Position numbers and translations under genes: made by a program. The notes under the pieces are model-generated. The model was not told where the DNA came from. It worked only from the letters and a program-made list of their open reading frames with translations, and made no database searches. A DNA stretch of 24,000 nt, from assembly GCF_000263735.1 (NCBI RefSeq), contig NC_017946.1:141348-165347 (forward strand), in the 5' to 3' direction. Positions 628-15,665 of the stretch are shown here, one piece after another. Positions within the stretch are counted from its first letter, which is position 1; each line of letters opens with the position of its first letter. The stretch comes from Pyrococcus sp. ST04 (GTDB taxonomy: Archaea > Methanobacteriota_B > Thermococci > Thermococcales > Thermococcaceae).

Positions 628-1706
628 AAGCTCCCGAGCTGGGGATAGAAATAGGAACATTTGAAAGAGGAAAAAGGAACAGCATAACTGACGTTAAAGG
701 CGTCAAAGTTGGGCATGTAACACTTATAAAAGGAAAAGGAAAGTTAATCCCTGGGAAAGGGCCAGTAAGGACAGGAGTCACAGCAATTCTGCCCCACGAA
801 GGGAACATATACAAGAAAAAGGTTCTCGGAGGAGCCTTTGTAATGAACGGCTACTCAAAGCCAGTAGGCTTAATCCAGCTCTGGGAGCTAGGAACTATAG
901 AGACACCAATTATACTCACAAACACGCTAAGCATAGGAACAGCAATTGAAGGGCTGCTAGACTACATTCTGGAAGAAAATGAAGACATAGGGATTAAAAC
1001 AGGCTCAGTCAATCCAATAGTCTTAGAATGCAATGACTCATACCTAAACGACATAAGAGGAAGGCACGTAAAGAGAGAACACGTTGTTGAGGCTATAAAA
1101 AACGCATCAGAGAACTTCGAAGAGGGGGCAGTCGGAGCTGGAACGGGAATGAGCGCCTTTGAGTTCAAGGGAGGAATAGGATCATCATCAAGGATAGTCG
1201 AAATTGAAGGGAAGAAGTACACGGTGGGTGCCCTCGTTCTTTCGAACTTCGGAAGGAGAGAAGACTTAACGATAGCAGGAGTTCCAGTTGGAATAGAGCT
1301 AAAAGACTGGCCAGGAAGAGGAGGAGAAGGAAAAGGGAGCATAATAATGATAATCGCAACGGACGCTCCATTAACCCACAGACAGCTTAACAGACTCGCC
1401 AAAAGGGCCATTGTAGGACTCGCCCGAACAGGAGGATATGCGTACAACGGAAGTGGAGACATAAGCCTAGCCTTTTCAACGGCCAACATAATAGAGCACT
1501 ACGAGAAGGAAGAAATTGCAATAAAATCCCTTCCAGACCCAGTACTCTCCCCATTATTCAAAGCAACAGCAGAAGCAGTTGAAGAAGCCATAGTGAACTC
1601 CCTTTTAGAGGCCAGAACCCTAGATGGAAGAGACAACCACATTAGGTACAAACTTCCTGAGGATAAACTTATTGAAATAATGGAAAAGTATGGGAGGCTT
1701 AGATAG
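624..1706 (+). CDS. DmpA/peptidase S58 (P1) family aminopeptidase (L-aminopeptidase/D-esterase-like)
   Basis: 360-aa ORF with family-typical segments: GPVRTGVTAILPHEG, GAVGAGTGMSAFEFKGGIGSSS (autoprocessing/nucleophile region) and IIATDAPL. The length is typical of archaeal DmpA homologues. Confidence 0.8.
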   Translation: MKAPELGIEIGTFERGKRNSITDVKGVKVGHVTLIKGKGKLIPGKGPVRTGVTAILPHEGNIYKKKVLGGAFVMNGYSKPVGLIQLWELGTIETPIILTNTLSIGTAIEGLLDYILEENEDIGIKTGSVNPIVLECNDSYLNDIRGRHVKREHVVEAIKNASENFEEGAVGAGTGMSAFEFKGGIGSSSRIVEIEGKKYTVGALVLSNFGRREDLTIAGVPVGIELKDWPGRGGEGKGSIIMIIATDAPLTHRQLNRLAKRAIVGLARTGGYAYNGSGDISLAFSTANIIEHYEKEEIAIKSLPDPVLSPLFKATAEAVEEAIVNSLLEARTLDGRDNHIRYKLPEDKLIEIMEKYGRLR

Positions 1707-1716
1707 AGACCAATAC

Positions 1717-1738
1717 ATTGTTTTTATCTCTATTTTAT
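1717..1738 (+). terminator. Oligo-T tract downstream of the S58 peptidase gene (putative archaeal terminator)
   Basis: TTGTTTTTATCTCTATTTTA lies directly after the stop at 1706. Archaeal RNA polymerase terminates at T-runs. There is no experimental support. Confidence 0.3.
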
Positions 1739-1856
1739 GAGCTCGCACTTCCATTTCCTAGGAAGCGAGTTTCACAGCGAACCGCTGGATTTTCCATAGC
1801 TATTGATTAGGAAATAGTGATAAAAGTTTGGTATGGATTATCCCATTGGTGATATC

Positions 1857-2504
1857 ATGACAAGGAAGCTCTACTATGAGGACGCCTACCTAAAAGAGGC
1901 CAAGGCAAAGGTTATTGAAATCCGAGAAAATGCTCTCCTACTCGATCAGACCATATTCTATCCAACAGGAGGAGGTCAGCCTCACGATAGAGGGTGGATA
2001 AATGGTGTTGAAGTGCTAGACGTTTACAAGGAAGGGGATAACGTTTGGCACGTGGTGAAGGAGCCAGAGAAGTTCAAAGTTGGAGATGAAGTAGAGCTCA
2101 AGATAGACTGGGATTACCGCTATAAACTTATGAGAATCCACTCAGCCCTCCATCTGCTCGAGCACGTTCTCAACGAAGTACTTGGCTATGGGAAGTGGGA
2201 GCTAGTAGGCAGTGGTATGAGCGTTGAGAAAGGAAGGTACGACATAGCTTATCCTGAAAACATCAATAAGTATAAGCAACAGATAATAGACCTATTCAAC
2301 AAATACGTCGATGAAGGAGGAGAAATGAAGATCTGGTGGGAGGGGGAAACAAGATACACACAGATAAGAGACTTCGAGGTTATTCCCTGTGGTGGAACCC
2401 ACGTTAGAGATATCAGCGAGATCGGCCACATAAAGAAGCTCAAGCGCTCCAGCATTGGAAAAGGAAAACAGAGGATAGAGATATGGCTCGAAGACAAGGC
2501 CTAG
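1857..2504 (+). CDS. alaX: Alanyl-tRNA editing protein AlaX (AlaX-M type, free-standing AlaRS editing domain)
   Basis: The ORF is open from 1833, but the ATG at 1857 is preceded by GGTGAT (1848-1853, SD-like) and gives MTRKLYYEDAYL. It carries the zinc/editing motifs HxxxH (HSALHLLEH) and CxxxH (CGGTHV), typical of the Thr/Ala-tRNA synthetase second additional domain. The size of about 215 aa fits Pyrococcus AlaX-M. Confidence 0.85.
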   Translation: MTRKLYYEDAYLKEAKAKVIEIRENALLLDQTIFYPTGGGQPHDRGWINGVEVLDVYKEGDNVWHVVKEPEKFKVGDEVELKIDWDYRYKLMRIHSALHLLEHVLNEVLGYGKWELVGSGMSVEKGRYDIAYPENINKYKQQIIDLFNKYVDEGGEMKIWWEGETRYTQIRDFEVIPCGGTHVRDISEIGHIKKLKRSSIGKGKQRIEIWLEDKA

Positions 2505-2579
2505 CTTTCTTTACAAAGTTTAATGCCTTCTAAAATCAAGAAGTAACACTTTTATTTCTTTTCTAAATTAGTACTCCTC

Positions 2580-5500
2580 ATGATTGAGCTACATCCAAGC
2601 GAAATTGCAAGGTTCTTTGAACTCCAAGGGTGCCCAAGATTCATGAATCTTCTTCGAAAAAGGAAGGAAGGAGAACTGAAAGATGTTGAGTGGATTGTAA
2701 ACAGAAAAGAAGCTGAGGGTAGAGAGCTAGCTAGATGGGGAAAGAACTTCGAGCTTGAAATCCTGCAAGAGCTAAAGAGAAAATTCGACTTTCAGTTTTA
2801 CGCTTTCTTTAAAAGTAGTGACGATGATGTAACCCTCAGGTTCTTTCAGAGGTATTATCCAGATGGTATTGTGAGGTACCAAAAGGAAGAAGAAGCCCTC
2901 GACAAAGTAAAAGACCTCTTAAAACAGAAGGAAAACTTCCTGCTATATCAAGCTCCCCTTATTGGAAGCATTGGAAAGTTTAAGATTAAAGGCATTGCCG
3001 ACTTTATTGTGAAAGTTAATGGAAAATACTACCTGCTCGAAGCCAAATTCACGAGGGAAGAGAAGCTACCCCACAGGATACAGGCCGTAATATACGGGAT
3101 GTTGCTGAAGAATATAATTGATGGTGACTTAGAAATCTCCGTTGTTACAAAGGAAAACTTCCCGTGGCCAAAGAAGTTCTTGAAGTTTCCGGAGGATGTA
3201 ACAGAAGTCATCCTGACTATCGAGGAAGAGCTGGACAAGGACATAAAAGACACTACTCCCTGGATCACGGCCAGATGCACAACTTGTCAATTTGAACCAC
3301 TCTGTCTTTCAGAGGTCTTAAAGAAGGGAGATTTAGGCCTTCTTGGGATATCGCCTGGAGATAAAAGGATACTCGAGGAGGCAGGTATAAAAACAATTGA
3401 AGACCTCGCAAAGCTAGTAGAATTCTCATCAAATTCTCCCGTAGACTTTACTCCTCCAAAAGTTAAGGAACCGGAGAAGGTAAAGAATATAGTGGCCAAA
3501 ACCGGTCTTAACATTATAAAACTATCGAGGATAGCACAGGCAGTAATACTTGAAAGGAAGGGAGATGCAAAAAGACTTTACATACCCGGGAGCGGGTACA
3601 ACCTACCTAAGATAAGCGGATACGAGTACTCTCACTTAACCAAGGTCTTTCTCTACGTTCAAAAGAGCCCGATAACAGAAACTCTCCTCGCAATCTCCGC
3701 CCTTATCAAAGGAAAAGCCGGCAAAAAATATGTTGTAAGTATTGTTAAAGAGCCTCCAATCGATATTGAAACAGGCCTTGAGGAAGAGAAAAGAATGCTA
3801 AGCAAATTCTTTGAAGAACTGATAGACGCCATAAAGGATGTAACGCCTGGAAATGAAATATATCTCCATCTATACTTCTACACAAGGGGTCAAAGAGAAG
3901 ACCTAGTTGATGCCCTAAGAAGGCATGAAACTCTCTGGTGGAGCGCTCCTATAAGGGCAATACTAAGCCTTAGAAAGGTCATCGACTGGGAAGGGTTCTC
4001 CATACTCAAAGACGAGCTCATAGACAGACATGCAATGCCCTTCGCCCAGGGACTGGGAATAGTTCCAGTTTCAATACAATTCGGCTACAGGTGGAACGAC
4101 AATGAATCATTCAGAGATATGCTAATGATCCTAGCCAAAAAATCATCTGACGGTTCGATATCCCTAAAGAGACTCTACAGTGTGGCAGAGATTGATTCGA
4201 TAAAGGAGTACTATCCAGTATTAAACAGAGATGATGACGAAATACCGTTCGCACTCTTCTGGAAAGCCCTAAAGGATGGTCATCGTGAGGATATAGAGGA
4301 CATCCTAATGCAAATTGTCTCGGCTATGGAAAAGATAGAGGAAGAGATAGAGGAGGAGTATAAGGATTACTACGCCAGAAAAAGACCAATAAGAAAAGAG
4401 GAATTTGACAGATTTAATTTGCCAGAGAAAGACCTAGTTGGCGTTCTTATGGAGTACCTAGCGCTTGAGTTCGGGACAAGAAAAGGCCAATTAGAGAGAT
4501 ACTACCGATTGCCATTGGAAATAAGGGGATATTCGGAGGACTCTGCAATCTTGAAAGTCGAAAGAATTGAGAGAAAGGTTAAAGGAGAGTGCATAATCTA
4601 CGGCAAGATAATGCTACCCGTTGAAGGGGGATTCAAAGATTATTCACCAGATGAAGTCCTGATAAACATCGATGAAGATTCTTGGGTGTCCGTCACTCCC
4701 ATAGAGGCATTTGGACGGGAAGATCCTGCAAAGACCGTTAGAACTTCCCCACTGGGAGTCGTCGAGGGTATAAACTACAAAACCGGAGAGTTGATCTTGA
4801 AGATGATTAAAATAGGTGGGAAAAAGTTTGTTCTAAAGAAAAAAGAATTCAAGTGCTGGAACGGGAAGCTAGAGATTAGCGGAATAAAGATATCAGCTGG
4901 AAGTTATCTAGTACTCGACCCAGCTATAGACGAAGTTGGCATGTCAAAAGCTTATGAAGAACTTGAAAAAATCCAGAGAGAGGGTAAACACGCCATTTAT
5001 ATCTTCTTGAATAGCCTGTATAACGGGAACATCCAAGCGGATTACAGAATAAACATCTGGAGAAAAGAGGACATAGAAGAGATTCTAGGCAACCTCAACT
5101 ATCTTAATGAAGAACAAAGAAAATTTGTAATGGACATTGAACATAGGCTCGTAACCCTTCAGGGACCACCTGGTACAGGAAAGACCTCAGGAGCGCTTGC
5201 ACCGGCAATCCTTGCTAGGGCATACTCAAGCCTGAAACAGGGAAAGAATGCCCTCTTCATCGTTACCGGACTCTCACATAGAGCAGTTAATGAAGCCCTA
5301 ATAAAGACGCACAAACTCCTCGAAAAACTAAAAGGAACGTTTAAGGAACTGAAACACGTTGAACTCGTCAGAGGAGTTGCGGGTGAGGAAGCTGTTGAGG
5401 CAATAAAGAAGGAGCTACCAATGAAGAACATCAAGTTTAAGTATCAAAAGCTTGATATTGATGTAAACTCTAGGTCGTTCCTTCCAAAGGTCACAATTCT

Positions 5501-6518
5501 CTTCGCAACCCCTCAAACTGCTTACAGACTCGCTGGAGATACACCCAGAGACTTAGTAGTTATTGATGAAGCCAGTATGATTGATCTTCCAATGTTCTTC
5601 CTGGCAACCTCAAAAGCTAGAGGCCAAGTTCTACTCGTTGGAGACCATAGACAAATGCAACCAATTCAGGTTCACGAATGGGAGCTGGAAGATAGAAAAA
5701 CCATTGAAGAACATCTCCCGTTTCTATCGGCGTTGAACTTCATAAGGTTCCTAAGAGGAGAGCTCGAAGAGAGGGAACTTAAGAGGTTCAAGAGAATTTT
5801 AGGAAGAGATCCCCCAGAATGGAGGGAGAAGAGCAAGGATGAAGTACTCCCACTGCACAGACTCAAGGAAACTTACAGACTTCCACAGGCCCTCGCCAAG
5901 TTACATTCCGAACTCTTCTATTCATTTGACGGGATAGAGCTTAGAAGTAATAAAAAACTCAATGAAAACGTCATTAAGGCCCTAAGAAGTGCCGGGAGTA
6001 CTGAATTCCTAAAGTTCATCCTCGATCCAGACTATCCAGTAATTCTCGTTGTCCATGGAGAATCATCCTCAACCAAGGTAAACGAGTTTGAGGCTTCACT
6101 CGTTGAGGAAATAGTAAGGGCAATAAAAGAGGTCGACGTGGGAGTTGTTGTTCCATACAGAGCCCAGAAGAGGATTATAAGGGAAAAAGTTAACGTCCAG
6201 GTTGACACCGTCGAAAGGTTCCAGGGTGGAGAGAAGGACGTCATAATAGTTTCAATGACATCAAGCGACCCCGCATATCTCATGAAGGTCATGGACTTCA
6301 TATACAACCCAAACAGACTCAACGTTGCAGGTAGTAGGGCCAAAGAAAAGCTAATCCTAATAGCCTCAAGAACACTCTTCACTCTCTCCCCAAGGGATTT
6401 GGAGAGCTTTGAACTGATGAGACCATGGAAGAGGTTTTATGTGAAGATGAGAGAAAACGGTGAAAAGATCAAAACAAGCATACGGGAAATACCAGTAGAG
6501 GTATACAGATGGCATTAG
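2580..6518 (+). CDS. Dna2-like nuclease-helicase: N-terminal Cas4/RecB-type PD-(D/E)xK nuclease with a 4-Cys cluster, an HhH motif, a large middle region, and a C-terminal SF1B (Dna2/Upf1-like) helicase
   Basis: 1312-aa ORF. Nuclease motifs: GIADF...LLEAKFT (D...ExK) and QAVIYGML (QxxxY). Cysteines: C17 (LQGCPRF) plus CTTCQFEPLC (CX2CX5C), the Cas4/AddB/Dna2 iron-sulfur arrangement. HhH-like segment: LLGISPGDKRILEEAGIKTIEDLAKL. Helicase motifs: GPPGTGKT (Walker A), VVIDEASM (motif II), LVGDHRQMQP, TVERFQGGEKDVIIVS and NVAGSRAKEKLILI (AAA_11/AAA_12-type). Confidence 0.8.
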   Translation: MIELHPSEIARFFELQGCPRFMNLLRKRKEGELKDVEWIVNRKEAEGRELARWGKNFELEILQELKRKFDFQFYAFFKSSDDDVTLRFFQRYYPDGIVRYQKEEEALDKVKDLLKQKENFLLYQAPLIGSIGKFKIKGIADFIVKVNGKYYLLEAKFTREEKLPHRIQAVIYGMLLKNIIDGDLEISVVTKENFPWPKKFLKFPEDVTEVILTIEEELDKDIKDTTPWITARCTTCQFEPLCLSEVLKKGDLGLLGISPGDKRILEEAGIKTIEDLAKLVEFSSNSPVDFTPPKVKEPEKVKNIVAKTGLNIIKLSRIAQAVILERKGDAKRLYIPGSGYNLPKISGYEYSHLTKVFLYVQKSPITETLLAISALIKGKAGKKYVVSIVKEPPIDIETGLEEEKRMLSKFFEELIDAIKDVTPGNEIYLHLYFYTRGQREDLVDALRRHETLWWSAPIRAILSLRKVIDWEGFSILKDELIDRHAMPFAQGLGIVPVSIQFGYRWNDNESFRDMLMILAKKSSDGSISLKRLYSVAEIDSIKEYYPVLNRDDDEIPFALFWKALKDGHREDIEDILMQIVSAMEKIEEEIEEEYKDYYARKRPIRKEEFDRFNLPEKDLVGVLMEYLALEFGTRKGQLERYYRLPLEIRGYSEDSAILKVERIERKVKGECIIYGKIMLPVEGGFKDYSPDEVLINIDEDSWVSVTPIEAFGREDPAKTVRTSPLGVVEGINYKTGELILKMIKIGGKKFVLKKKEFKCWNGKLEISGIKISAGSYLVLDPAIDEVGMSKAYEELEKIQREGKHAIYIFLNSLYNGNIQADYRINIWRKEDIEEILGNLNYLNEEQRKFVMDIEHRLVTLQGPPGTGKTSGALAPAILARAYSSLKQGKNALFIVTGLSHRAVNEALIKTHKLLEKLKGTFKELKHVELVRGVAGEEAVEAIKKELPMKNIKFKYQKLDIDVNSRSFLPKVTILFATPQTAYRLAGDTPRDLVVIDEASMIDLPMFFLATSKARGQVLLVGDHRQMQPIQVHEWELEDRKTIEEHLPFLSALNFIRFLRGELEERELKRFKRILGRDPPEWREKSKDEVLPLHRLKETYRLPQALAKLHSELFYSFDGIELRSNKKLNENVIKALRSAGSTEFLKFILDPDYPVILVVHGESSSTKVNEFEASLVEEIVRAIKEVDVGVVVPYRAQKRIIREKVNVQVDTVERFQGGEKDVIIVSMTSSDPAYLMKVMDFIYNPNRLNVAGSRAKEKLILIASRTLFTLSPRDLESFELMRPWKRFYVKMRENGEKIKTSIREIPVEVYRWH

Positions 6519-6527
6519 GCCAGAATT

Positions 6528-7562
6528 TTAGAATATATGTATCGAAGAGGCCTTAAACGTTATGTACACTTCTTTCCCCTCACTTATCCCCATTTCTATC
6601 ATTGAGGATCTCGTTATAAAAGCCTTAAAAGGAATCCCCTCTACCTCAACAGTAACCCTAACGAGGGCACCCAAGTCCTCAATAGAGACTACCTTCCCCC
6701 TAAATTCGTTTCTTGCTGAAGTTCTAATTCTTTCAGTGGAGAGAACTATATCCTCAGGTCGTATGCCAATCCTAACCTTTCCCTTAACCTCCCGAGGTAG
6801 TTCTATTTTTATGCCCCCAACTTTTAACACCCTCCCCTCCGCCTGTCCTTCCAATATGTTCTCAAACCCTAAGAACTTACCAACTTCCTCAGTCTTCGGC
6901 CTCGAGAATACTTCGGTAACTTTTCCAACCTGAACAAGTTTTCCATTCAGCATTACTCCAACTCTATCACCAAGTGAAATTGCCTCTTCAAAAGAGTGTG
7001 TTACATGAATTGCCGTAAAGTTCAGCTCCTTCCTCCACCTTTTCATCTCTTTAATAAGTCTTGATCTTGTTTGAACGTCAAGGTTCGCAAAGGGTTCGTC
7101 CATAAGGATTAAGGGAGGCTCTATTACAAGGGCTCTCGCAATGGCAACCCTCTGTTGCTCACCACCACTAAGTGTCGTCGGTTTCCTGTGAAGCAGGTTC
7201 GCTATTCCAAGTATCTCGGCAATTTCTTCAACCCTTTTCTTAATCTCCTCCCTGGGAACCTTTCTAATCTTCAGCCCAAAGGCTATGTTGTCAAAAACTG
7301 TCATGTGGGGGAAGAGAGCATAATTCTGAGGGATGTACGCCAGCCCCCTCTTTTCTGGGGGAAGATTAGTAACATCCCTCCCGTTCAGTAAAATTTTACC
7401 CTCATCGGGCTCTATTATTCCAGCTATTATCTCAAGCAACACAGTCTTACCAGCACCGCTAGGCCCTAGGATTATGAAATACTCCCCCCTCTTAACACTG
7501 AATGTTATCCCCCTCAGCCTGAATTCTTTCCAATCCTTCGAAACGTTTTCCACGCTCAGCAT
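6528..7562 (-). CDS. wtpC: Tungstate/molybdate ABC transporter ATP-binding protein (WtpC-like) with a C-terminal TOBE/Mop-type domain
   Basis: Motifs seen: Walker [10 protein letters not shown]-loop IPQNYALF, signature [15 protein letters not shown], Walker B LILMDEP and H-loop HVTHS. The C-terminal ~100 aa form a beta-rich TOBE-like tail. It is the last gene of a three-gene binding protein/permease/ATPase operon. Confidence 0.8.
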
Positions 7563-7566
7563 AGTA

Positions 7567-8310
7567 TCACCTTGAGGCCTTACCTACCAGCCATCTAAGG
7601 AGTATGAATATCGTGAGGCTCATCGCTATTAGAATCACAGATATCGGCCTGGAAGCTCTAAGCCCATAGTTGTTGAAGTACTCCATAACAAGAATTTGTG
7701 CCGTTTTTGGATAGTAAGCAACTATTAAGACAGCCCCGACTTCACTTATCGCTCTGGCCCAAGCCATGATCCCACCACTTGCAATCGAGGGGAGAGCCAT
7801 TGGGAGGGCTACTGAAAAGAAGGCCCTAAGCCTAGAAGCTCCAAGTGTTCTTGCAACGTACTCAAGCTTTTCATCTACCGCAAGAAATCCATCTCTAGCA
7901 GCATTGACCGCAAACGGGGCAGATACAAAAAGCATTGCAGCAACTATTCCCTTATAACTGTCTAATATTGCCGTTGAGAAAGTTACCAAGAGCATTATTC
8001 CAACAACCGAGTGAGGAATGACCACTGGAACATCAATTAAAGCCTGCACTATGCTCTTCCCCCTAAATTCCTTCCTTGCAAGCACGTAACCCAGGGGCAC
8101 TCCAAAGAAAACTGACAGGATTGCAGTTGCAGTTGCGGTGATTACAGAGTTTCGAAGGGCCTCCCTCACAAGAGGGTCATGAATTGTCTTCACAAGCATT
8201 TCAAAGTCATAAGCCTGCTTAATGAAAATCACCACTAATGGAAGGGCTATGAACACCACAAGGAAGCTCCCCATCCCTGCAAAGAAATATAGTGTGTATT
8301 CCTTCCTCAT
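7567..8310 (-). CDS. wtpB: Tungstate/molybdate ABC transporter permease (WtpB-like)
   Basis: 247-aa polytopic membrane protein with the ABC permease EAA-type loop ([28 protein letters not shown]). It sits 4 nt upstream of the ATPase gene. Confidence 0.75.
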
Positions 8311-8388
8311 CGCTCGCTAATGCGCTAAAAAATTTTTAAACCTTGCTTGATGTTAAACACAATTGTTAAATATAAAAATAGAGGGAGA

Positions 8389-9520
<1,132 letters not shown>

Positions 9521-9578
9521 TAAAAATTTTCGGAGGAAACGTTTTAATCCCTCCAGCAAAGTTTAATGGGGGATTCTC

Positions 9579-10868
9579 ATGAGGCTAGCCCTCATAGATG
9601 GCGAGCACTATCCTGATGTTAACAGGTGGGCCCTGGATAAAATAAAGCCCTGCTGTGCAGTCTTCGTCGGAGGAATCGAGAAGATTGGAGGGATAGAGGA
9701 CGTTGAAAGGGCTCTTGGAGTCAAGCTCTATCATGATACCGATGTGTTTAAAGCCCTGGAGAAGGCATTGAAAGAAAATAGAATTAAAGAAGTTATAGAC
9801 CTAAGCGACGAGCCCGTTTTAACCCCTGAACTGAGATTCAAGATAGCATCATTTCTCCTAAGAAGGGGAGTATCGTACAGAGGAGCAGACTTTGAGTTCA
9901 AACCAAAGGAATGGATCAAAGTTGATGTACCTTCAATCAACATAATAGGAACGGGTAAGAGAGTAGGCAAAACATCCGTAGGAGCCTTCGTTGGCAGAAC
10001 CCTGAAGGAACTCTACAATGTCGTCATAGTGACCATGGGCAGAGGAGGGCCTGAAAAGCCAGAGGTCATCAGAGGAGACCTCATAGAGATAACCCCAGAA
10101 TACCTTCTTAGAGTAGCTGAAGAAGGAAAGCACGCTGCATCAGACCACTTCGAAGATGCCCTAATGGCAGGAGTCGCGACAGTTGGTTGCAGAAGGTGTG
10201 GAGGAGGGCTTGCGGGATTTTCATTCTTTGACATAATAAAGGAAGGAATAGAAGTAGCAAAGTCCCTGAACCCTGAGATAATAATCCTCGAAGGTTCTGG
10301 CCCAACATTTGCAAACGTTCTAGCGGATGGATTCATAACAGTTGTAAGCGCCGTTCAAGGCATTGAAAAGGTTAAGAGCTACTTCGGCCCTCTAAGAATC
10401 GCCCTTGCAGACATAGTAGTAGTGACAATGGCCGATTCCTCGCCCGAGAATGCAGAAAAGATAGTCAAGGCTGTGAGAGAGATAAACCCAGACGCTGACA
10501 TCCACGTTACAAGGTTTGCCCCAAGACTCATAGGAAGCGTAGAAGGAAAAGCATTCGTGGCAACAACATCATGGGAATCAGCAAGAAAGATTTCTGAGGA
10601 ATTAAACAGGCTAGGCTTGGAGATAGTAGCATTCTCAGGAAATCTGGCAAACAGAAGAAAGCTTATGGAGGAGCTGAAGAAGGCCAGCTATGACACGATG
10701 ATAGTAGAGCTAAAGGCCGGAGCCGTTGACGTCGCGGTAAGGGATGCACTTTCCAAAGGAAAGAAGGTCGTATTCCTAGACAACGAGCCAAGAAACATCG
10801 ATGGCAAAAGCCTTGCAACTGCAGTAAAAGATTTAGCCAGGAGGGTAGTCAATGATAAGGGTCGTTGA
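9579..10868 (+). CDS. cpgS: Cyclic 2,3-diphosphoglycerate synthetase-like protein
   Basis: 429 aa. The N-terminus [11 protein letters not shown] and the P-loop-like [13 protein letters not shown] match my recollection of the cDPG synthetase family. It is coupled (17-nt overlap) to a 2-phosphoglycerate kinase-like gene, the other enzyme of the cDPG pathway. Confidence 0.65.
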
Positions 10869-11757
10869 AAAGGACGGCAAAATAGCATTGCCCTTCTCGA
10901 GAGGCATCCTCACCAGGTCAATAACATCCGTGGGAATAGACGTTGATCTCGCATACGCAATAGCAATAGAGGTTCAGGAAGAACTAAAGAAGGGAGGCAA
11001 AACCATTGTAACGAAAGACGAGATAAGAAGGCTGACTTATCAAAAATTAATAGAGAAGGGGTTCAAGGAAGAAGCAAGAAGGTATCTATTCTGGAGAAGA
11101 TTCAGAAAGATGAAAATCCCATTAATAATTCTCCTCGGCGGCCCGACTGGAGTTGGAAAGTCAACAATAGCCACAGAGCTAGCCTTCAGACTTGGAATAA
11201 GAAGCGTGATAGGAACGGATACAATAAGAGAGGTCATGAGAAAAATAATAACACCAGAACTCCTTCCAACAATTCACACATCAACATTCCTCGCATGGAA
11301 AGAGCTCAAAGGAACAGTCGAAGGTTCCCCAATAATAGCGGGATTTGAAAGCCAGGTAAGTGCAGTAACAGTTGGAATAAACGCCGTGATCCAAAGGGCA
11401 AGAAGAGAAGGGCTTAACGCCATAATAGAGGGGATCCACGTTGTCCCTGGCTTCGTCGACATGAAGCACGAGATGACGTTCATGTATATGATAGTTGCAA
11501 AAAGTAGAGAAGACCTGGAAGCTAGGTTCTACGAAAGAACGAGATACAGCAAAAGATCCGCAGAGTACTACATCTCACACTTAGATTCCATAATGGAAAT
11601 CCAAGAGTACCTAATAGGAAAGGCCAGAGAGCATAACGTACCAATAATAGAGAACATCGAACTTGAAAGCACGATAGCAAAAATAATGCAGGACATAATG
11701 GAAAAAACACTCGAAATTATGAAGAAAAAAGGCCTCGACATGTTAGAGGAACCTTAG
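10852..11757 (+). CDS. 2-phosphoglycerate kinase-like protein (N-terminal ATP-cone-like segment plus P-loop kinase)
   Basis: 301 aa. It has the Walker A motif [11 protein letters not shown]. The N-terminal ~90 aa are ATP-cone-like ([11 protein letters not shown]...DEIRRL). It is paired with the cpgS-like gene. Confidence 0.65.
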
Positions 11758-12450
11758 GGACACGTCACCATAAATCACGGCCTTCTTACTGCCATCCTCA
11801 AGTCTAACAATGAGCCTCCCATAATCATCAACATCCTCAGCAACTCCAACTACTTCACCATCCCCCACAACCTTCACCGGAACACCCAGTATCATTAACT
11901 CCCTAGCCAGCTCAAGGATCGTTCTTGGAGATTCCATGAAAACCTTATACAGCTCATCAAGGTTCTCTATCAACGATTTGAATACATTGGTCAAAGCAAG
12001 CTCAGACCCAAGATAAAGTTTCATCGAAGTTCCATTCTCAGGAGCATCGTTGTTAACATTGAGACCTATCCCTAAGATAACTCTTTTTCCCTTTTTTTCG
12101 ACAAGTATCCCGGCTATTTTCTTAAAATCAACAAGAACATCGTTTGGCCACTTTATCCTTGCTGGTACTGAAAATTCCTCAAGGGTCCTAACAACGGCCA
12201 CCGCGCCCAGGAAAGTTATCTTGGGTAGGTCTTCCATGGAAACATTAGGTTGCAAGATAACACTAAGCCACAAGCCTCCCCTAGGAGATTCCCATTTCCT
12301 GTTTAATCTTCCATGTCCACTGATCTGGACATCGGCCACTATCACAGTCCCCTCTTCAAACTTCTCGGACTTAGCTACATCGTTTGTTGAAGAAATTTCC
12401 TGAAAGTAAACAACTTTTTTCCCAATGAGAGAGGTTTTTAGTCCGAGCAT
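11743..12450 (-). CDS. birA: Biotin--[acetyl-CoA-carboxylase] ligase (biotin protein ligase, no N-terminal repressor domain)
   Basis: 235 aa, the same length and close in sequence to the crystallised P. horikoshii biotin protein ligase (MLGLKTS...). The [17 protein letters not shown] biotin/ATP-binding loop is present. Its 3' end overlaps the convergent 2PGK-like gene by 15 nt. Confidence 0.9.
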
Positions 12451-12470
12451 ATATTAAAATGACCGCAAGG

Positions 12471-12480
12471 TTTATAAAAA
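12471..12480. promoter_or_regulatory. TATA box (TTTATAAAAA) placed to serve both the tRNA operon (+) and birA (-)
   Basis: The TATA lies about 28-37 nt upstream of tRNA-Phe nucleotide 1 (12508). On the other strand (TTTTTATAAA) it lies about 21-30 nt upstream of the birA ATG (12450), which would make birA leaderless. Confidence 0.5.
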
Positions 12481-12507
12481 TCCTCCTTCACCATAACTTT
12501 CGAGGGT

Positions 12508-12584
12508 GGGGCGGTAGCTCAGCCTGGGAGAGCACCGGACTGAAGATCCGGGTGTCGGGGGTTCAAATCCCCCCCGCCCCACCA
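12508..12584 (+). tRNA. tRNA-Phe (anticodon GAA), genomically encoded CCA
   Basis: I folded the cloverleaf by hand. The acceptor stem is GGGGCGG/CCGCCCC. The anticodon arm is CCGGA-CTGAAGA-TCCGG. The T arm is GGGGG-TTCAAAT-CCCCC. The discriminator is A, followed by CCA. Confidence 0.95.
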
Positions 12585-12590
12585 GCAAGT

Positions 12591-12668
12591 GCGGTGGTAG
12601 TCTAGCCTGGTCTAGGACGCCGGCCTTCCGAGCCGGCGACCCGGGTTCAAATCCCGGCCACCGCACCA
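12591..12668 (+). tRNA. tRNA-Gly (anticodon UCC), genomically encoded CCA
   Basis: The acceptor stem is GCGGTGG/CCACCGC. The anticodon arm is CCGGC-CTTCCGA-GCCGG. The T arm is CCGGG-TTCAAAT-CCCGG. The discriminator is A, followed by CCA. It starts 6 nt after tRNA-Phe, so the two are probably co-transcribed. Confidence 0.95.
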
Positions 12669-12670
12669 CA

Positions 12671-12698
12671 ATTTTCAAAACAACATCATTTTCTTCCA
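12671..12698 (+). terminator. T-tracts after the tRNA pair (putative terminator)
   Basis: ATTTTC and CATTTTCTTCC follow directly after tRNA-Gly. Confidence 0.3.
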
Positions 12699-13240
12699 GA
12701 ATTGCACTCTTTTAGGGATTCTATTGTTAAAAGTAAACTGAACAGGAGTGTACATGTCCTCGAATTTTTTCGGTTTTTGGTGTTTTGGGTTGTTTTTAGT
12801 TTTACTCTTCTCTAAGCCCTTTACTTCAAAATTAACTCCTCGAGAGTGGATTGGAGGGCTTTAGTAATCAATCGTTAGAATATTACAATCCGTAATAATT
12901 AATCCAAAAAACCATCACGAAATTTTTTCAAAATTTTTAGTAGAACCACTAGAACCCTCCAAAAACCCTAAACATTATGGAAACCTAGAGTTTTAGAGAA
13001 CACTCTACCCTCACGCCCGGATTTTGAGTTTACTCTTATGATTGACCATTGGAGTTTAACACTATTCAAAACTTACTTGAGGGTAGAGGATTCACAAGGC
13101 GTTGTTTTGGATGATAGAACGGTTTAGAGTTCTCTTCTCTAGGCATTCATCCAACTCTAAAAAGCCCCCCTCACAAAAACCTTATAAAAAATCAAGGCAG
13201 GAAAATACTACAAAAACAAAAAACACCAAAAAAGCCCCCT
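12699..13240 (+). promoter_or_regulatory. CRISPR leader (non-coding, AT-rich, about 540 bp)
   Basis: There is no credible ORF here. The region lies immediately upstream of repeat 1, in the orientation that yields crRNAs with the ATTGAAAG 5' tag. It contains a TATA-like element about 50 nt before repeat 1 and several internal repeats (see findings). Confidence 0.8.
13181..13192 (+). promoter_or_regulatory. Putative leader promoter TATA box (CTTATAAAAAAT) preceded by an A-rich BRE-like CACAAAAAC
   Basis: This is the best TATA-like match in the leader, 49-60 nt upstream of the first repeat (13241). The predicted transcription start is near 13210-13215. Confidence 0.45.
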
Positions 13241-14633
13241 GTTCCAATAAGACTATAAGAGAATTGAAAGCAAGAGGATCCAGAAGCCAGCTGATGAGCG
13301 TCTCTGGGTTCCAGTTCCAATAAGACTATAAGAGAATTGAAAGGGGGCTGTTAAAAGGGCTGAAAAAGAGGCTATGGGGGTTCCAATAAGACTATAAGAG
13401 AATTGAAAGATTCGCCAGAAAAGCCGAAGAAGAACTCAAAACCTTCGTTCCAATAAGACTATAAGAGAATTGAAAGCTCTTAAACTGACTTATTATCTCA
13501 GATTTGGCTCCAGGTTCCAATAAGACTATAAGAGAATTGAAAGTATTTTCAACAAATAAGACATAGAAAGCAAGAGCTTTATGTTCCAATAAGACTATAA
13601 GAGAATTGAAAGGAACTGTGCTGGCTCGGAGAGCTTCTTGCGGCCGGCGGTTCCAATAAGACTATAAGAGAATTGAAAGTGGGCTCGATTTCATCCCATG
13701 GGGGCTACTGATAATCGTTCCAATAAGACTATAAGAGAATTGAAAGAGGGCTGTTCGTAGACTACTGGACGGGCCGCCTTTGCGTTCCAATAAGACTATA
13801 AGAGAATTGAAAGAACTTCTTACACATTTCATCAAATTCAGCAAATTTTGAGTTCCAATAAGACTAAAAAAGAATTGAAAGGTGGAATCCTATCAATTTT
13901 CGTTCGCGGAGGCTCTAGTTCCAATAAGACTAAAAAAGAATTGAAAGTCATAGATAAGGGATTCTCCCTCATGGTATCTTGTCATGTTCCAATAAGACTA
14001 AAAAAGAATTGAAAGCTCTTCCTTACCAGTCTGTCTGTCCTTGTAGACCGCCCGTTCCAATAAGACTAAAAAAAGAATTGAAAGCCAGGTGTTGGAGGAG
14101 ATGGGGAGGGCTTCTTTAGGGGTTCCAATAAGACTAAAAAAGAATTGAAAGTCAAGTTGCTACCCAAGTCTTGTATCACTCCAAGACCGTTCCAATAAGA
14201 CTAAAAAAGAATTGAAAGGAGTTACTCTCAGTGTCCTGGACATCCACTGCAATCAGTTCCAATAAGACTATAAGAGAATTGAAAGTCCCACTTGGGTGGA
14301 CACTTGGAGGCAAAACGGTAAAGTTCCAATAAGACTATAAGAGAATTGAAAGTTGGAACGAACACAGCAACGCTAATCTCAGTGCCCTTACTGACATCAC
14401 TGTTCCAATAAGACTATAAGAGAATTGAAAGAGGCCCTGAGCCTTACGAACTGCTTGCCATTAACCTCGTTCCAATAAGGCTAAAAAAGAATTGAAAGAT
14501 ACAGACTAATAGCCGACGTGGGCGACGGGCTGTTGTTCCAATAAGACTAAAAAAGAATTGAAAGAACATCGTTCACTCTCACCTTCTTGTTAAACTCCTC
14601 GTCGTTCCAATAAGACTATAAGAGAATTGAAAG
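13241..14633 (+). CRISPR. CRISPR array: 21 repeats of 30 nt (one of 31) and 20 spacers, Pyrococcus-type repeat
   Basis: Repeat starts: 13241, 13314, 13380, 13447, 13514, 13583, 13650, 13717, 13784 (variant A, GTTCCAATAAGACTATAAGAGAATTGAAAG). Then 13852, 13918, 13986, 14054 (31 nt, extra A), 14122, 14189 (variant B, GTTCCAATAAGACTAAAAAAGAATTGAAAG). Then 14256, 14323, 14402 (A); 14469 (B with A12G), 14535 (B); 14604 (A). Spacers are 36-39 nt, except spacer 1 (43 nt) and spacer 17 (49 nt). The leader lies on the 5' side. Confidence 0.98.
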
Positions 14634-15140
14634 TTGAATGTGGTGGGGATCGTGAAAGTCAAATTGTTGATATACGGTGACAAGGACAAGATTAAAATTC
14701 TACGTGAAAAACTGAAGGGCATCAGTTCAATAACGTCAGTGAATATTGGTGTTGACATTACTAAACTCGTCGTTGACGTCTATGAGATGATAAACTCGCA
14801 TGTTAATTTGGACGAAATTCTTGAAAGTGTTTTTGGTGAGTTGTGTGAGAACAACGTATTGTGCAACGTTTGTGATTTTAGTGGTGTTTTGGAATTTGTA
14901 AAAGTCAGTGTTGAGAAATGGAATGGGGAGAGGGTCGTTGTCGTCAGGCCCGTTGTTGATGGTGTTCTTGGTGAGTGCATCCTGTATGACCTTGCGTGTG
15001 AATTAATGTTAGAGGATTATATTATTGAGGATTATAACGGTGGTTCTGATGCAATTGTTATTTTTGAAGACGACGTGTTCCCTTCCTCTCTTAATGAGGT
15101 CGCCGAAGATATTATCAAGATGTTGAAAAGTTTTGGTTGA
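14634..15140 (+). CDS. Hypothetical acidic protein encoded inside the CRISPR array (no family recognised)
   Basis: This 168-codon ORF is the only long ORF in the 515-bp segment between repeat 21 and the degenerate repeat 22. It opens at the first base after the repeat (TTG), with in-frame GTG at 14640, 14643 and 14652. The first in-frame ATG is codon 52. I count about 30 D/E against 15 K/R. The coding strand is G+T-rich and C-poor (6 C in 14821-14940). A stop-free run of this length in ~40% GC DNA is unlikely by chance. Start site and expression are unknown. Confidence 0.5.
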   Translation: MNVVGIVKVKLLIYGDKDKIKILREKLKGISSITSVNIGVDITKLVVDVYEMINSHVNLDEILESVFGELCENNVLCNVCDFSGVLEFVKVSVEKWNGERVVVVRPVVDGVLGECILYDLACELMLEDYIIEDYNGGSDAIVIFEDDVFPSSLNEVAEDIIKMLKSFG

Positions 15141-15148
15141 CATGTGTT

Positions 15149-15180
15149 GTTCTAATAAGACTATAACAGAATTGTGAAAG
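15149..15180 (+). repeat. Degenerate terminal CRISPR repeat (32 nt)
   Basis: GTTCTAATAAGACTATAACAGAATTGTGAAAG differs from variant A by C5T, G19C and a 2-nt insertion (TG) in the ATTGAAAG tag. It is in the same orientation as the array, 515 bp after repeat 21. Confidence 0.85.
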
Positions 15181-15245
15181 CCAAGAAAATTTAGAAAGAG
15201 GAACAGTAAAGAAAAATAAGTTGAAAAGTATAGTTAGATTTTAGG

Positions 15246-15665
15246 GTGAACGAGATGGACATGCGGGCTCCAATTAAGGTTTACATGACAAAGAAGCTTC
15301 TGGGCGTTAAGCCAAATACAACAGTTCAGGAAGCCTCAAGAATTATGATGGAGTTCGAGGTCGGGTCGCTAGTTGTTGTGGATGACCATGGCAACGTAAT
15401 AGGCTTCTTCACCAAAAGTGACGTTCTAAGGAGGGTCATAGTCCCGGGGCTACCCTATGATACTCCAGTAAGGGAGATAATGACAAAAAATCTGATAACG
15501 GTGGATTCAAATACGCCACTTGGTGAAGTTCTAAAGAAGATGGCTGAGCACAGAATCAAGCACATTCTTGTAGAGGAGGAAGGGAAGATTGTGGGGATAT
15601 TCACACTGAGTGACCTTCTTGAGGCCAGCAGAAGAAGGCTTGAAACAGCAATTTCAACGGAGTGA
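15246..15665 (+). CDS. CBS domain-pair protein
   Basis: 139 aa with two CBS-type motifs (VKVYMTKKLLGVKP...VVDDHGNVIGFFTKSDVLRRV and VREIMTKNLITVDSNTPL...ILVEEEGKIVGIFTLSDLL). The GTG start at 15246 is uncertain; in-frame ATGs at 15255 and 15261 are alternatives. It sits 6 nt upstream of the phosphoesterase gene. Confidence 0.85.
   Translation: MNEMDMRAPIKVYMTKKLLGVKPNTTVQEASRIMMEFEVGSLVVVDDHGNVIGFFTKSDVLRRVIVPGLPYDTPVREIMTKNLITVDSNTPLGEVLKKMAEHRIKHILVEEEGKIVGIFTLSDLLEASRRRLETAISTE

What the first reader, a model, noticed from the sequence alone, without database searches (positions are those of the whole stretch)
14604..15180. Acidic 168-codon ORF sits inside the CRISPR array, bracketed by the last intact repeat and a degenerate repeat
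In place of a ~37-nt spacer, repeat 21 (14604-14633) and the degenerate repeat 22 (15149-15180) enclose 515 bp. This segment holds a single ORF (14634-15140) that opens at the first base after the repeat.

Read-through from the leader plus Cas6 cleavage at the known Pyrococcus position, 8 nt before the repeat end, would release an RNA starting AUUGAAAG (14626-14633) fused directly to the ORF. In effect this would be a crRNA-shaped mRNA.

The product is strongly acidic (about 30 D/E against 15 K/R) and Val-rich, and has a Cys pair (CENNVLCNVC). I recognise no family for it.

Its coding strand is unusually C-poor and G+T-rich (6 C in 120 nt at 14821-14940). It uses TTG Leu and CGT Arg codons, which look atypical beside the flanking genes and suggest a foreign origin.

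The two junctions look related. TTGAAAG-TTGAATGTG (14627-14642) resembles TTGAAAAG-ttttgg-TTGACATGTG (15123-15146). This could be a footprint of insertion or recombination into the last spacer.

Hypotheses, all inference: (1) a gene from a mobile element or virus captured in, or inserted into, the array, such as a small acidic anti-CRISPR-like or DNA-mimic protein; (2) a cargo gene whose expression is tied to array transcription and Cas6 processing; (3) a neutral insertion that separated the old terminal repeat from the array.
Basis: partly seen in the sequence, partly recalled or inferred. Interest (0 to 1): 0.8.

Follow-up and report, generated by a model that had tools for sequence, protein, structure and literature searches.

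The report
Orphan gene inside a CRISPR array's tail
In Pyrococcus sp. ST04, a 515-bp piece of foreign-looking DNA with one gene found nowhere else sits where the last spacer of a CRISPR array should be; it is most likely a strain-specific insertion, and nothing yet shows it does anything for or against CRISPR immunity.

Summary
The window is Pyrococcus sp. ST04. A 21-repeat array (13241-14633) is followed by 515 bp and then a degenerate 22nd repeat (15149-15180; two substitutions plus a 2-nt insertion). The 20 normal spacers are 36-49 nt.

One frame is open across the whole 515 bp. This is unlikely by chance and scores as coding in that frame only. NCBI annotates a 162-aa product starting at GTG 14652, which follows a Shine-Dalgarno-like GGTGGGGATC.

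The product is acidic (pI 4.3), Val- and Cys-rich, and uses non-host codons. It has no homologue other than itself in 5.8 billion clustered proteins, 1.84 billion HMMER representatives, Pfam, NCBIfam, PHROGs, PADLOC, PDB, phage and plasmid records, IMG/VR or JGI metagenomes.

The orthologous arrays in P. chitonophagus and P. abyssi end with ordinary spacers.

There are no decayed repeats, terminal inverted repeats or mobile-element genes.

The array tail also lies at the junction of an ST04-specific ~13.5-kb inversion.

Best reading: a lineage-specific foreign orphan gene that entered at the repeats. The "crRNA-shaped mRNA" and anti-CRISPR ideas remain untested.

The parts
12508..12668 (+). 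tRNA-Phe(GAA) and tRNA-Gly(UCC), the conserved anchor upstream of the array leader
   Evidence: ARAGORN and Rfam. The same tRNA pair flanks the orthologous arrays in P. chitonophagus, P. abyssi and P. kukulkanii.
12669..13240 (+). CRISPR leader, with a BRE/TATA-like AAAAACCTTATAAAAAA at about 13174-13191, roughly 50 nt before repeat 1
   Evidence: Sequence. The promoter assignment is inferred by analogy with T. kodakarensis and P. abyssi leaders (PMC3737340, PMC3124441).
13241..14633 (+). CRISPR array of 21 repeats (30 nt, Rfam CRISPR-DR6 type) and 20 spacers of 36-49 nt. It is a mosaic of two repeat variants: ..CTATAAGAG.. in repeats 1-9, 16-18 and 21, and ..CTAAAAAAG.. in repeats 10-15 and 19-20.
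14604..14633 (+). Repeat 21, the last intact repeat. The expected Cas6 cut is between 14625 and 14626, leaving the tag AUUGAAAG.
   Evidence: Sequence identical to the other variant-A repeats. The cleavage position is inferred from P. furiosus and T. kodakarensis work (PMC3737340) and was not shown here.
14634..15148 (+). 515-bp non-spacer insert in the position of spacer 21. It is G+T-rich, C-poor and 38.8% GC.
   Evidence: No residual repeats inside it, no terminal inverted repeats, no Rfam family. No Pfam match at E<=0.1 in the other five frames. Frame 0 gives only a sub-threshold DraIII match (16.8 bits against a cut-off of 27).
14642..14651 (+). Shine-Dalgarno-like GGTGGGGATC, matching 8 of 10 positions of GGAGGTGATC. 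Its GGTG lies 6 nt before GTG 14652.
   Evidence: Sequence. The spacing resembles the GGTG-N5-ATG seen upstream of the CBS orthologues. The anti-SD sequence is from general knowledge.
14652..15140 (+). Orphan gene of 162 aa plus stop, with a GTG start, equal to the NCBI hypothetical protein of Pyrococcus sp. ST04. The frame is open from TTG 14634, which gives 168 codons.
   Evidence: P0001, 162 aa. One search gave 100% identity over residues 1-162 and one search gave 99% because its query began at TTG 14634. Coding statistics are; protein properties.
15149..15180 (+). Degenerate terminal repeat, derived from variant A, with C5>T, G19>C and a TG insertion before GAAAG
15181..15239 (.). Right junction of the ST04-specific inversion. 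This stretch does not align with any relative. Alignable CBS upstream sequence and the CBS gene (ATG 15255) start after it.
1707..1840 (.). Left junction of the same inversion, between the Peptidase_S58 gene (624-1706) and the inverted AlaX gene (ATG 1857). It holds no repeat remnant.

Best explanation
The 515 bp is a strain-specific piece of foreign DNA, most likely a remnant of an unknown Thermococcales mobile element. It carries one real, or recently real, protein-coding orphan gene, and it occupies the last spacer position of an otherwise ordinary CRISPR array.

I think it entered through the repeats and not by insertion into the middle of a spacer. One route is homologous recombination between an element-borne repeat (a solitary repeat or mini-array) and the terminal repeat of the array. 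Another is an aberrant integrase-type event. Either route leaves a repeat on each side. On the first route the downstream copy could owe some of its changes to the element's own repeat; on either route it could simply have decayed as terminal repeats do.

The gene has its own ribosome-binding site and a GTG start 18 nt after the repeat. Any transcription probably comes from read-through of the leader-driven pre-crRNA. In that case Cas6 cutting in repeat 21 would give the mRNA an AUUGAAAG 5' end. This would be a by-product of location, not an evolved arrangement.

No role in CRISPR immunity is indicated.

**Shown:** the anatomy, coding-like statistics, non-host codon usage, absence of any homologue, absence from the orthologous arrays, and the neighbouring inversion.

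**Inferred:** foreign origin, repeat-mediated entry and the route of expression.
For: **Coding**
- The open frame spans the whole insert. It was matched in 10 of 20000 mononucleotide shuffles (p=5e-4) and in 180 of 20000 Markov simulations (0.9%).
- The host-codon log-likelihood per codon is -4.00 in frame. Host genes score -3.86 +/- 0.06 in frame and -4.66 out of frame. The other five frames of the insert score -4.26 to -5.18.
- G is 0.42, 0.16 and 0.21 at codon positions 1, 2 and 3.
- A Shine-Dalgarno-like motif precedes the GTG, and NCBI's 162-aa call uses that start.

**Foreign**
- Third-position T is 0.42 against a host mean of 0.22 (z=3.4). G+T has z=3.4 and C has z=-3.2. GGT is 82% of Gly against 17% in the host, and TTG is 41% of Leu against 10%.

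**Orphan**
- Only self-hits were found.
- Nothing was found in Pfam, NCBIfam, PHROGs or PADLOC, PDB, phage and plasmid tblastn, IMG/VR or JGI metagenomes.

**Lineage-specific**
- The orthologous arrays beside tRNA-Gly, tRNA-Phe and the biotin ligase gene in P. chitonophagus and P. abyssi end with normal spacers and degenerate terminal repeats.

**Entry at the repeats**
- Only 18 nt (which include the SD) and 8 nt lie between the gene and the flanking repeats. A normal ~37-nt spacer is therefore not preserved around it.
- There are no TIRs and no significant direct repeat at the ends.
- The array is a mosaic of two repeat variants, which fits earlier recombination between arrays.
- Integration through element-borne solitary repeats has been proposed in the literature (PMC8616872).
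Against: - No mobile-element hallmark gene, att site or second foreign gene is present, so the source is unknown.
- The comparison genomes are distant (biotin ligase 69-70% identical, no shared spacers). Absence from their arrays says little about when or how the insert arrived.
- With no homologue, purifying selection cannot be tested. The AlphaFold single-sequence model is poor (pLDDT 46). The ORF could therefore be decaying or never translated.
- The Markov-model probability of the open frame is only about 1%.
- Everything rests on a single genome assembly.
Confidence: 0.55

Rival explanations
1. The insert is non-functional filler. The open frame is a decaying or never-translated relic, for example a fragment of a once larger foreign gene or element. 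The degenerate repeat is simply the old terminal repeat pushed away from the array.
For: - It is a singleton with no homologue anywhere.
- The structure prediction has low confidence.
- The amino-acid composition is odd: Val 15%, Cys 3.1% against 0.5% in the host, Arg 1.9% against 6.2%.
- Two T5 runs lie inside the ORF (14830-14834 and 15061-15065), whereas the 1.4-kb array has none.
- In P. abyssi no stable RNA was detected from the last spacers next to degenerate repeats (PMC3124441).
Against: - The frame is intact over all 168 codons (p between 5e-4 and 9e-3).
- The in-frame codon likelihood lies within the host gene range and far from the out-of-frame values.
- A Shine-Dalgarno-like motif sits at the right distance from a GTG.
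Confidence: 0.27
2. The gene is an anti-defence or otherwise CRISPR-related cargo, such as an acidic anti-CRISPR or DNA mimic, left by a mobile element. Its expression is tied to array transcription: leader-driven read-through plus Cas6 cleavage in repeat 21 releases an mRNA that carries the crRNA 5' tag. These are the reader's hypotheses 1 and 2.
For: - The protein is small and acidic: pI 4.33, net charge about -15.
- Its composition looks foreign.
- It sits directly after an intact repeat whose sequence is identical to processed repeats.
- A leader promoter-like BRE/TATA is present and the array has no T5 terminator.
- Thermococcales arrays are transcribed from the leader and cut 8 nt before the repeat end (PMC3737340).
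Against: - No similarity to any defence or anti-defence family was found.
- There is no aca-like HTH gene and no mobile-element context.
- It is unique to one strain, so there is no sign of selection or recurrence.
- crRNA abundance falls toward the trailer in relatives, and the last units gave no signal in P. abyssi (PMC3737340, PMC3124441).
- Acidity alone is weak evidence.
- A gene kept in the host chromosome that inhibits the host's own CRISPR system would be counter-selected unless the system is inactive.
Confidence: 0.07
3. The structure is an assembly artefact. Reads from different arrays that share the 30-nt repeat were joined wrongly, so the ORF is not really contiguous with this 21-repeat array.
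For: - The array alternates between two repeat variants in blocks, which can result from collapsed or chimeric repeat assemblies.
- Only one assembly carries the protein (1 member, 1 contig).
- The number of spacers in one P. furiosus array differed between assemblies (PMC6640164).
Against: - Even if the left joint were wrong, the ORF would still be preceded by an intact repeat and followed by the unique degenerate repeat and the unique CBS gene. The repeat-ORF-degenerate-repeat unit would therefore stand.
- Blocks of repeat variants are also a normal product of recombination between arrays.
Confidence: 0.05

Closest known systems
Degenerate terminal repeats of Thermococcales CRISPR arrays (e.g. 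P. abyssi CRISPR1 and CRISPR4; PMC3124441)
   Same: The copy at 15149-15180 lies at the leader-distal end, in the same orientation, and carries a few changes. The orthologous arrays of P. abyssi and P. chitonophagus have terminal repeats of the same kind.
   Different: In those arrays the degenerate repeat follows an ordinary spacer. Here it follows 515 bp that contain a gene.
Integration of mobile elements into CRISPR arrays through element-borne solitary repeat units or mini-arrays (a proposal of Faure et al. 2019, summarised in PMC8616872; mini-arrays in PMC6858448)
   Same: Foreign-looking DNA is bounded on both sides by direct copies of the host repeat. No intact old spacer and no transposon-type ends are present.
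   Different: No virus or plasmid genes are present, the insert is only 515 bp, and no donor element carrying this repeat or ORF is known. The mechanism itself is a proposal and not a documented pathway.
Insertion-sequence or transposon interruptions of CRISPR arrays (general knowledge)
   Same: A non-spacer insert separates repeats of one array.
   Different: There is no transposase, no terminal inverted repeats and no target-site duplication above chance.
Anti-CRISPR proteins (small, often acidic DNA mimics encoded by viruses and plasmids)
   Same: Small size, strong acidity, foreign codon usage, and a lack of detectable homologues, which is typical of many Acr proteins.
   Different: It has no mobile-element context, no aca partner and no family match, it sits inside the host's own array, and no activity has been tested.
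CreTA-type crRNA-like modules (degenerate repeats flanking a pseudo-spacer next to a toxin; from my own knowledge of Li et al. 2021, not checked here)
   Same: A degenerate repeat is paired with a normal-looking repeat, with a non-spacer sequence between them.
   Different: CreA pseudo-spacers have spacer length and lie within cas operons. Here the interval is 515 bp, it encodes a 162-aa protein, and no cas gene lies in the 24-kb window.

Membership tests
CRISPR repeat, Rfam CRISPR-DR6 type (for the element at 15149-15180) | Sequence match to the repeat model | tested here: inconclusive
   34.6 bits, below the gathering score of 39, but E=1.8e-5. It matches 28 of 30 positions of variant A, with a 2-nt insertion. 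It is clearly derived from the repeat but is degenerate.
CRISPR repeat, Rfam CRISPR-DR6 type (for the element at 15149-15180) | Same orientation as the array and location at its leader-distal end | tested here: met
CRISPR repeat, Rfam CRISPR-DR6 type (for the element at 15149-15180) | Separated from the previous repeat by a spacer-length interval | tested here: not met
   515 bp, against 36-49 nt for the 20 spacers.
Cas6-processed crRNA unit (for repeat 21 plus the downstream RNA) | Intact repeat with the Cas6 recognition region and a cleavage site 8 nt from its 3' end | tested here: met
   Repeat 21 is identical to 12 other repeats of the array. The position of the site is taken from PMC3737340.
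Cas6-processed crRNA unit (for repeat 21 plus the downstream RNA) | Transcript present and actually cleaved at 14625/14626 | not testable with these tools
   No transcriptome data for ST04 are available. No cas gene lies in the window.
Anti-CRISPR protein | Homology to a described anti-CRISPR or anti-defence family | tested here: not met
   Nothing passes threshold in Pfam, NCBIfam, PHROGs, PADLOC or PDB.
Anti-CRISPR protein | Encoded on a virus, plasmid or prophage, usually next to an HTH (aca) gene | tested here: not met
   The neighbours are CRISPR repeats and a conserved CBS-domain housekeeping gene. No match in phage, plasmid or IMG/VR collections.
Anti-CRISPR protein | Inhibits CRISPR interference | not testable with these tools
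   Needs a plasmid-challenge assay.
Insertion sequence or transposon | Transposase gene, terminal inverted repeats, target-site duplication | tested here: not met
   No transposase domain. No TIR at the ends. The direct-repeat similarity at the junctions has p=0.33.
Mobile element integrated by recombination at a repeat (solitary-repeat route) | Insert bounded by two direct repeat copies with no intact old spacer | tested here: met
   Only 18 nt and 8 nt of non-gene sequence lie between the gene and the repeats.
Mobile element integrated by recombination at a repeat (solitary-repeat route) | Recognisable virus or plasmid genes in the insert, or a known donor carrying the repeat | tested here: not met
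   The single gene is an orphan and no donor was found.
Real protein-coding gene | Open frame longer than chance, in-frame codon statistics, and a start codon with a ribosome-binding site | tested here: met
Real protein-coding gene | Conservation under purifying selection, or a confident fold | tested here: not met
   No homologue exists to compare. AlphaFold pLDDT is 46. No fold match at E<=0.001.

The most novel reading that the evidence does not exclude
The repeat-ORF-degenerate-repeat unit is a functional array-embedded gene. Leader-driven pre-crRNA transcription plus Cas6 cleavage in repeat 21 yields a translatable mRNA that carries the crRNA 5' tag. Its acidic product modulates CRISPR-Cas, for example as a captured anti-CRISPR or a regulator. 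This would be the first protein gene whose mRNA is made by the crRNA-processing pathway.
Probability: 0.04. Interest if true: 0.85.

Novelty: new member of a known kind. Interest (0 to 1): 0.3.

Why it matters
If the best reading is right, this is a tidy natural example of non-spacer DNA entering a CRISPR array at the repeats. It gives one data point for the proposed, still undocumented, route by which repeat-bearing mobile elements recombine with host arrays. It also shows how orphan genes reach archaeal chromosomes.

The case matters more only if the gene is expressed from the array transcript and acts on CRISPR-Cas. That would link crRNA processing to mRNA production. Nothing found here points that way, and the feature occurs in a single strain, so its general importance is limited.

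The ST04-specific inversion that ends at the array tail adds to the known picture of chromosome shuffling in Pyrococcus.

Tried and rejected
- **Decayed array.** The 515 bp could have been about 8 eroded repeat-spacer units. The best repeat match inside it is no better than in shuffles (p=0.18). Rejected.
- **Junction footprint.** Other short two-copy matches (14649-14662 with 15171-15184; 15117-15140 with 15215-15238) are of chance size. Rejected.
- **Transposon ends.** No terminal inverted repeats.
- **Fragment of a known gene in another frame or strand.** No Pfam hit at E<=0.1 in the other five frames.
- **Internal duplication.** The two GE-x7-C motifs suggested one, but self-alignment gives p=0.49.
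- **Homology searches, all empty apart from the self-hit:**
  - word-indexed search of 5.8 billion clustered proteins;
  - full HMMER scan of 1.84 billion representatives;
  - Pfam, where only DraIII appears at 16.8 bits against a cut-off of 27, which I regard as noise;
  - NCBIfam, PHROGs and PADLOC;
  - PDB by sequence, best E=0.069 to fatty-acid-binding proteins, which I regard as noise;
  - phage and plasmid tblastn;
  - IMG/VR and JGI metagenome scans.
- **Structure.** The single-sequence AlphaFold model has pLDDT 46. Foldseek against PDB gives nothing at E<=0.001, so the gyrase-like top hits mean nothing.
- **Weak tblastn hits to the solute-binding protein gene.** These have E of 0.4-0.8 and recur in several loci only because those loci are orthologues of each other. 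Rejected.
- **Inversion created the insert by recombination with a second repeat.** No repeat remnant lies at the other junction, 1707-1856 (p=0.76). The insert lies inside the degenerate repeat, so it travelled with the array. Not supported.
- **Spacer matches.** No spacer matches the insert or any fetched locus.
- **Look-ups that failed.** ST04 and NA2 proteins were not on record in the contig index. The rest of the ST04 genome, including its other arrays and cas genes, could not be examined.
Full report
**Source and anatomy**

The only database match to the ORF is the 162-aa hypothetical protein of Pyrococcus sp. ST04, 99-100% identical. The neighbouring CBS-domain protein and biotin ligase match ST04 proteins at 100%. 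The window is therefore from ST04.

The region is laid out as follows.
- tRNA-Phe and tRNA-Gly lie at 12508-12668.
- An A/T-rich leader of about 570 bp follows. It has a BRE/TATA-like AAAAACCTTATAAAAAA about 50 nt before the first repeat.
- 21 repeats of 30 nt follow at 13241-14633, with 20 spacers of 36-49 nt.
- All 21 repeats score above the gathering threshold of Rfam CRISPR-DR6 on the + strand. This is the repeat family of P. furiosus and T. kodakarensis. In those species arrays are transcribed from the leader, and Cas6 cuts 8 nt before the repeat end to leave an AUUGAAAG-type tag (PMC3737340).
- After repeat 21 (14604-14633) come 515 bp.
- A degenerate repeat lies at 15149-15180. It has two substitutions and a TG insertion, and scores 34.6 bits with E=1.8e-5.

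**Is the ORF real?**

One frame is open across the entire insert, 168 codons from 14634 to the TGA at 15138-15140. The other five frames each carry several stops.

Stop codons are already rare in this A-poor, G+T-rich sequence. Even so, an open stretch this long appeared in only 10 of 20000 mononucleotide shuffles. It appeared in 180 of 20000 Markov-1 simulations trained on the segment itself.

I built a codon table from 19 genes of the window. Under it:

| Sequence | Log-likelihood per codon |
|---|---|
| ORF frame | -4.00 |
| Host genes, in frame | -3.86 +/- 0.06 (minimum -4.01) |
| Host genes, out of frame | -4.66 |
| Other five frames of the insert | -4.26 to -5.18 |

G is strongly enriched at codon position 1 (0.42, against 0.16 and 0.21 at positions 2 and 3).

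GGTGGGGATC at 14642-14651 resembles the archaeal Shine-Dalgarno sequence, and its GGTG sits 6 nt before GTG 14652. This is the start NCBI uses for its 162-aa product. I conclude that this is, or recently was, a protein-coding gene that starts 18 nt after the repeat and not at the first base after it.

**The protein and its origin**

- The product is acidic (pI 4.33, 30 D/E against 15 K/R).
- It is Val-rich (15%) and has 5 Cys (3.1%, against 0.5% in host genes).
- Codon choice is not host-like. Third-position T is 0.42 against 0.22 (z=3.4). GGT is 82% of Gly against 17%. TTG is 41% of Leu against 10%.
- The following searches found nothing beyond the self-hit:
  - 5.8 billion clustered proteins;
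  - a full HMMER scan of 1.84 billion representatives;
  - Pfam, NCBIfam, PHROGs and PADLOC;
  - PDB sequences;
  - tblastn of phage and plasmid collections;
  - IMG/VR and JGI metagenome scans.
- The other five frames have no Pfam match either.
- The single-sequence AlphaFold model is unreliable (pLDDT 46), and Foldseek found nothing at E<=0.001.

The gene is a true orphan with foreign-looking composition. Its function cannot be read from sequence.

**What the insert is not**

- It is not a run of eroded repeat-spacer units. The best repeat match inside it has p=0.18.
- It has no terminal inverted repeats.
- It has no transposase or other mobile-element gene.
- The protein has no significant internal duplication.
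- No spacer of the array matches the insert.

**Comparison with relatives**

Loci recovered through the biotin ligase gene show the orthologous array next to the same tRNA-Gly/tRNA-Phe pair in three species:
- P. chitonophagus, 12 repeats;
- P. abyssi, 23 repeats, which is CRISPR1 of PMC3124441;
- P. kukulkanii, where the array is displaced by an integrated element.

In P. chitonophagus and P. abyssi the array ends with ordinary spacers followed by degenerate terminal repeats, with no long insert. These genomes are distant from ST04, however. The ligase is 69-70% identical and no spacer is shared. This shows the insert is not a conserved feature of the locus, but it does not date the insertion.

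**A rearrangement at the same spot**

In seven other Pyrococcus genomes the CBS gene is preceded by divergently oriented AlaX and a 1300-aa helicase. These are P. kukulkanii (two strains), P. chitonophagus, NA2, P. yayanosii, P. furiosus, P. abyssi and P. horikoshii.

In P. chitonophagus the gene order is DUF835, Peptidase_S58, array (-), tRNAs (-), biotin ligase and so on to helicase (-), AlaX (-) and CBS (+). The terminal repeat lies only 9 nt from the S58 stop codon.

ST04 has the same block in reverse between S58 (624-1706) and CBS (15255). A single ST04-specific inversion explains this. Its junctions fall within 1707-1840 and 15181-15239.

The array tail therefore abuts an inversion junction. 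The insert lies inside the degenerate repeat, and no repeat remnant lies at the other junction. The inversion moved the unit and did not create it. The association may mean only that the trailer is a recombination-prone site.

The array is also a mosaic of two repeat variants, in the order A x9, B x6, A x3, B x2, A x1, insert, degenerate A. This points to earlier recombination between arrays.

**Most likely mechanism (inference)**

Only 18 nt (including the SD) and 8 nt separate the gene from the flanking repeats. A normal ~37-nt spacer has therefore been replaced, not split.

This pattern is expected if the DNA entered through the repeats themselves. One route is recombination between a repeat carried by a mobile element and the terminal repeat of the array. 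That route has been proposed for solitary repeat units of viruses (PMC8616872). Another route is an aberrant integrase event.

Most of the element would then have been lost, leaving one gene.

**Expression (inference)**

Expression, if any, would most simply come from read-through of the pre-crRNA. The array has no T5 run, while the ORF has two. Cas6 would then give the RNA an AUUGAAAG 5' end. I regard that as a consequence of position.

In relatives, crRNA levels fall toward the trailer (PMC3737340). The last units next to degenerate repeats gave no Northern signal in P. abyssi (PMC3124441). Both argue against strong expression.

P. furiosus dRNA-seq did call internal start sites associated with the CRISPR repeat sequence (PMC6640164). 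These may be Cas6 5'-OH ends and not promoters.

**Verdict**

- The foreign-origin reading is supported by composition and orphan status.
- The footprint is rejected.
- The anti-CRISPR and 'crRNA-shaped mRNA' ideas have no supporting evidence, but the tools here cannot exclude them.

This is a strain-specific oddity of a known general kind: non-spacer DNA in an array, and an orphan gene in a variable region. Interest is modest.

Noticed in passing
window 1707-15239, compared with L008-L015 and L017: ST04 carries a ~13.5-kb inversion of the whole block from AlaX and the helicase through to the biotin ligase, the tRNAs and the CRISPR array. The AlaX(-)|CBS(+) adjacency is conserved in seven other Pyrococcus genomes, and the order S58-array(-) is seen in P. 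chitonophagus. The junctions lie within 1707-1840 and 15181-15239. No repeat or IS element is visible at either junction.
   Followed up: partly
window 13241-14633: The array is a block mosaic of two repeat variants: ..CTATAAGAG.. in repeats 1-9, 16-18 and 21, and ..CTAAAAAAG.. in repeats 10-15 and 19-20. This suggests past recombination between arrays, or possibly assembly chimerism. Repeat 13 (14054-14084) has an extra A, and repeat 19 (14469-14498) has A>G (AAGGCT).
   Followed up: partly
window 13271-13313 and 14353-14401: Two spacers are over-long. Spacer 1 is 43 nt and ends in GTTCCA, a duplicate of the repeat start. Spacer 17 is 49 nt and begins TTGGAAC, the reverse complement of the repeat start.
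   Followed up: no
L016 (P. kukulkanii CP010835) about 1250-9780: About 8 kb of genes lies between tRNA-Gly and the orthologous CRISPR array. It includes an SSV-type integrase (PF16795), a UvrD-like helicase and several genes with no Pfam hit. It looks like an integrated element at the tRNA, next to the array leader.
   Followed up: no
L009 and L010, 3676-5937: Two genes without any Pfam hit (402 aa on + and 356 aa on -) sit between AlaX and CBS in P. kukulkanii NCB100 and P. chitonophagus. They are absent from another P. kukulkanii assembly (L008) and from the other species. The intergenic site that became the ST04 inversion junction is therefore variable elsewhere too.
   Followed up: no
window 13241-15260: No run of 5 or more T occurs on the + strand anywhere in the 1.4-kb array. 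Two T5 runs lie inside the ORF (14830-14834 and 15061-15065). These could act as weak archaeal terminators for read-through transcripts.
   Followed up: no
L002 302-1726; L003 and L006: In some Thermococcus MAGs the ATP-cone/AAA gene (orthologue of window 10852-11757) lies directly next to the CBS-metallophosphoesterase pair. The neighbourhood has therefore been reshuffled repeatedly in Thermococcales.
   Followed up: no
window 9579-10868: This 429-aa gene had no Pfam hit at E<=0.001 in my scan. Its positional counterparts in P. chitonophagus and P. abyssi carry precomputed PF27272 (CpgS_N) hits.
   Followed up: no
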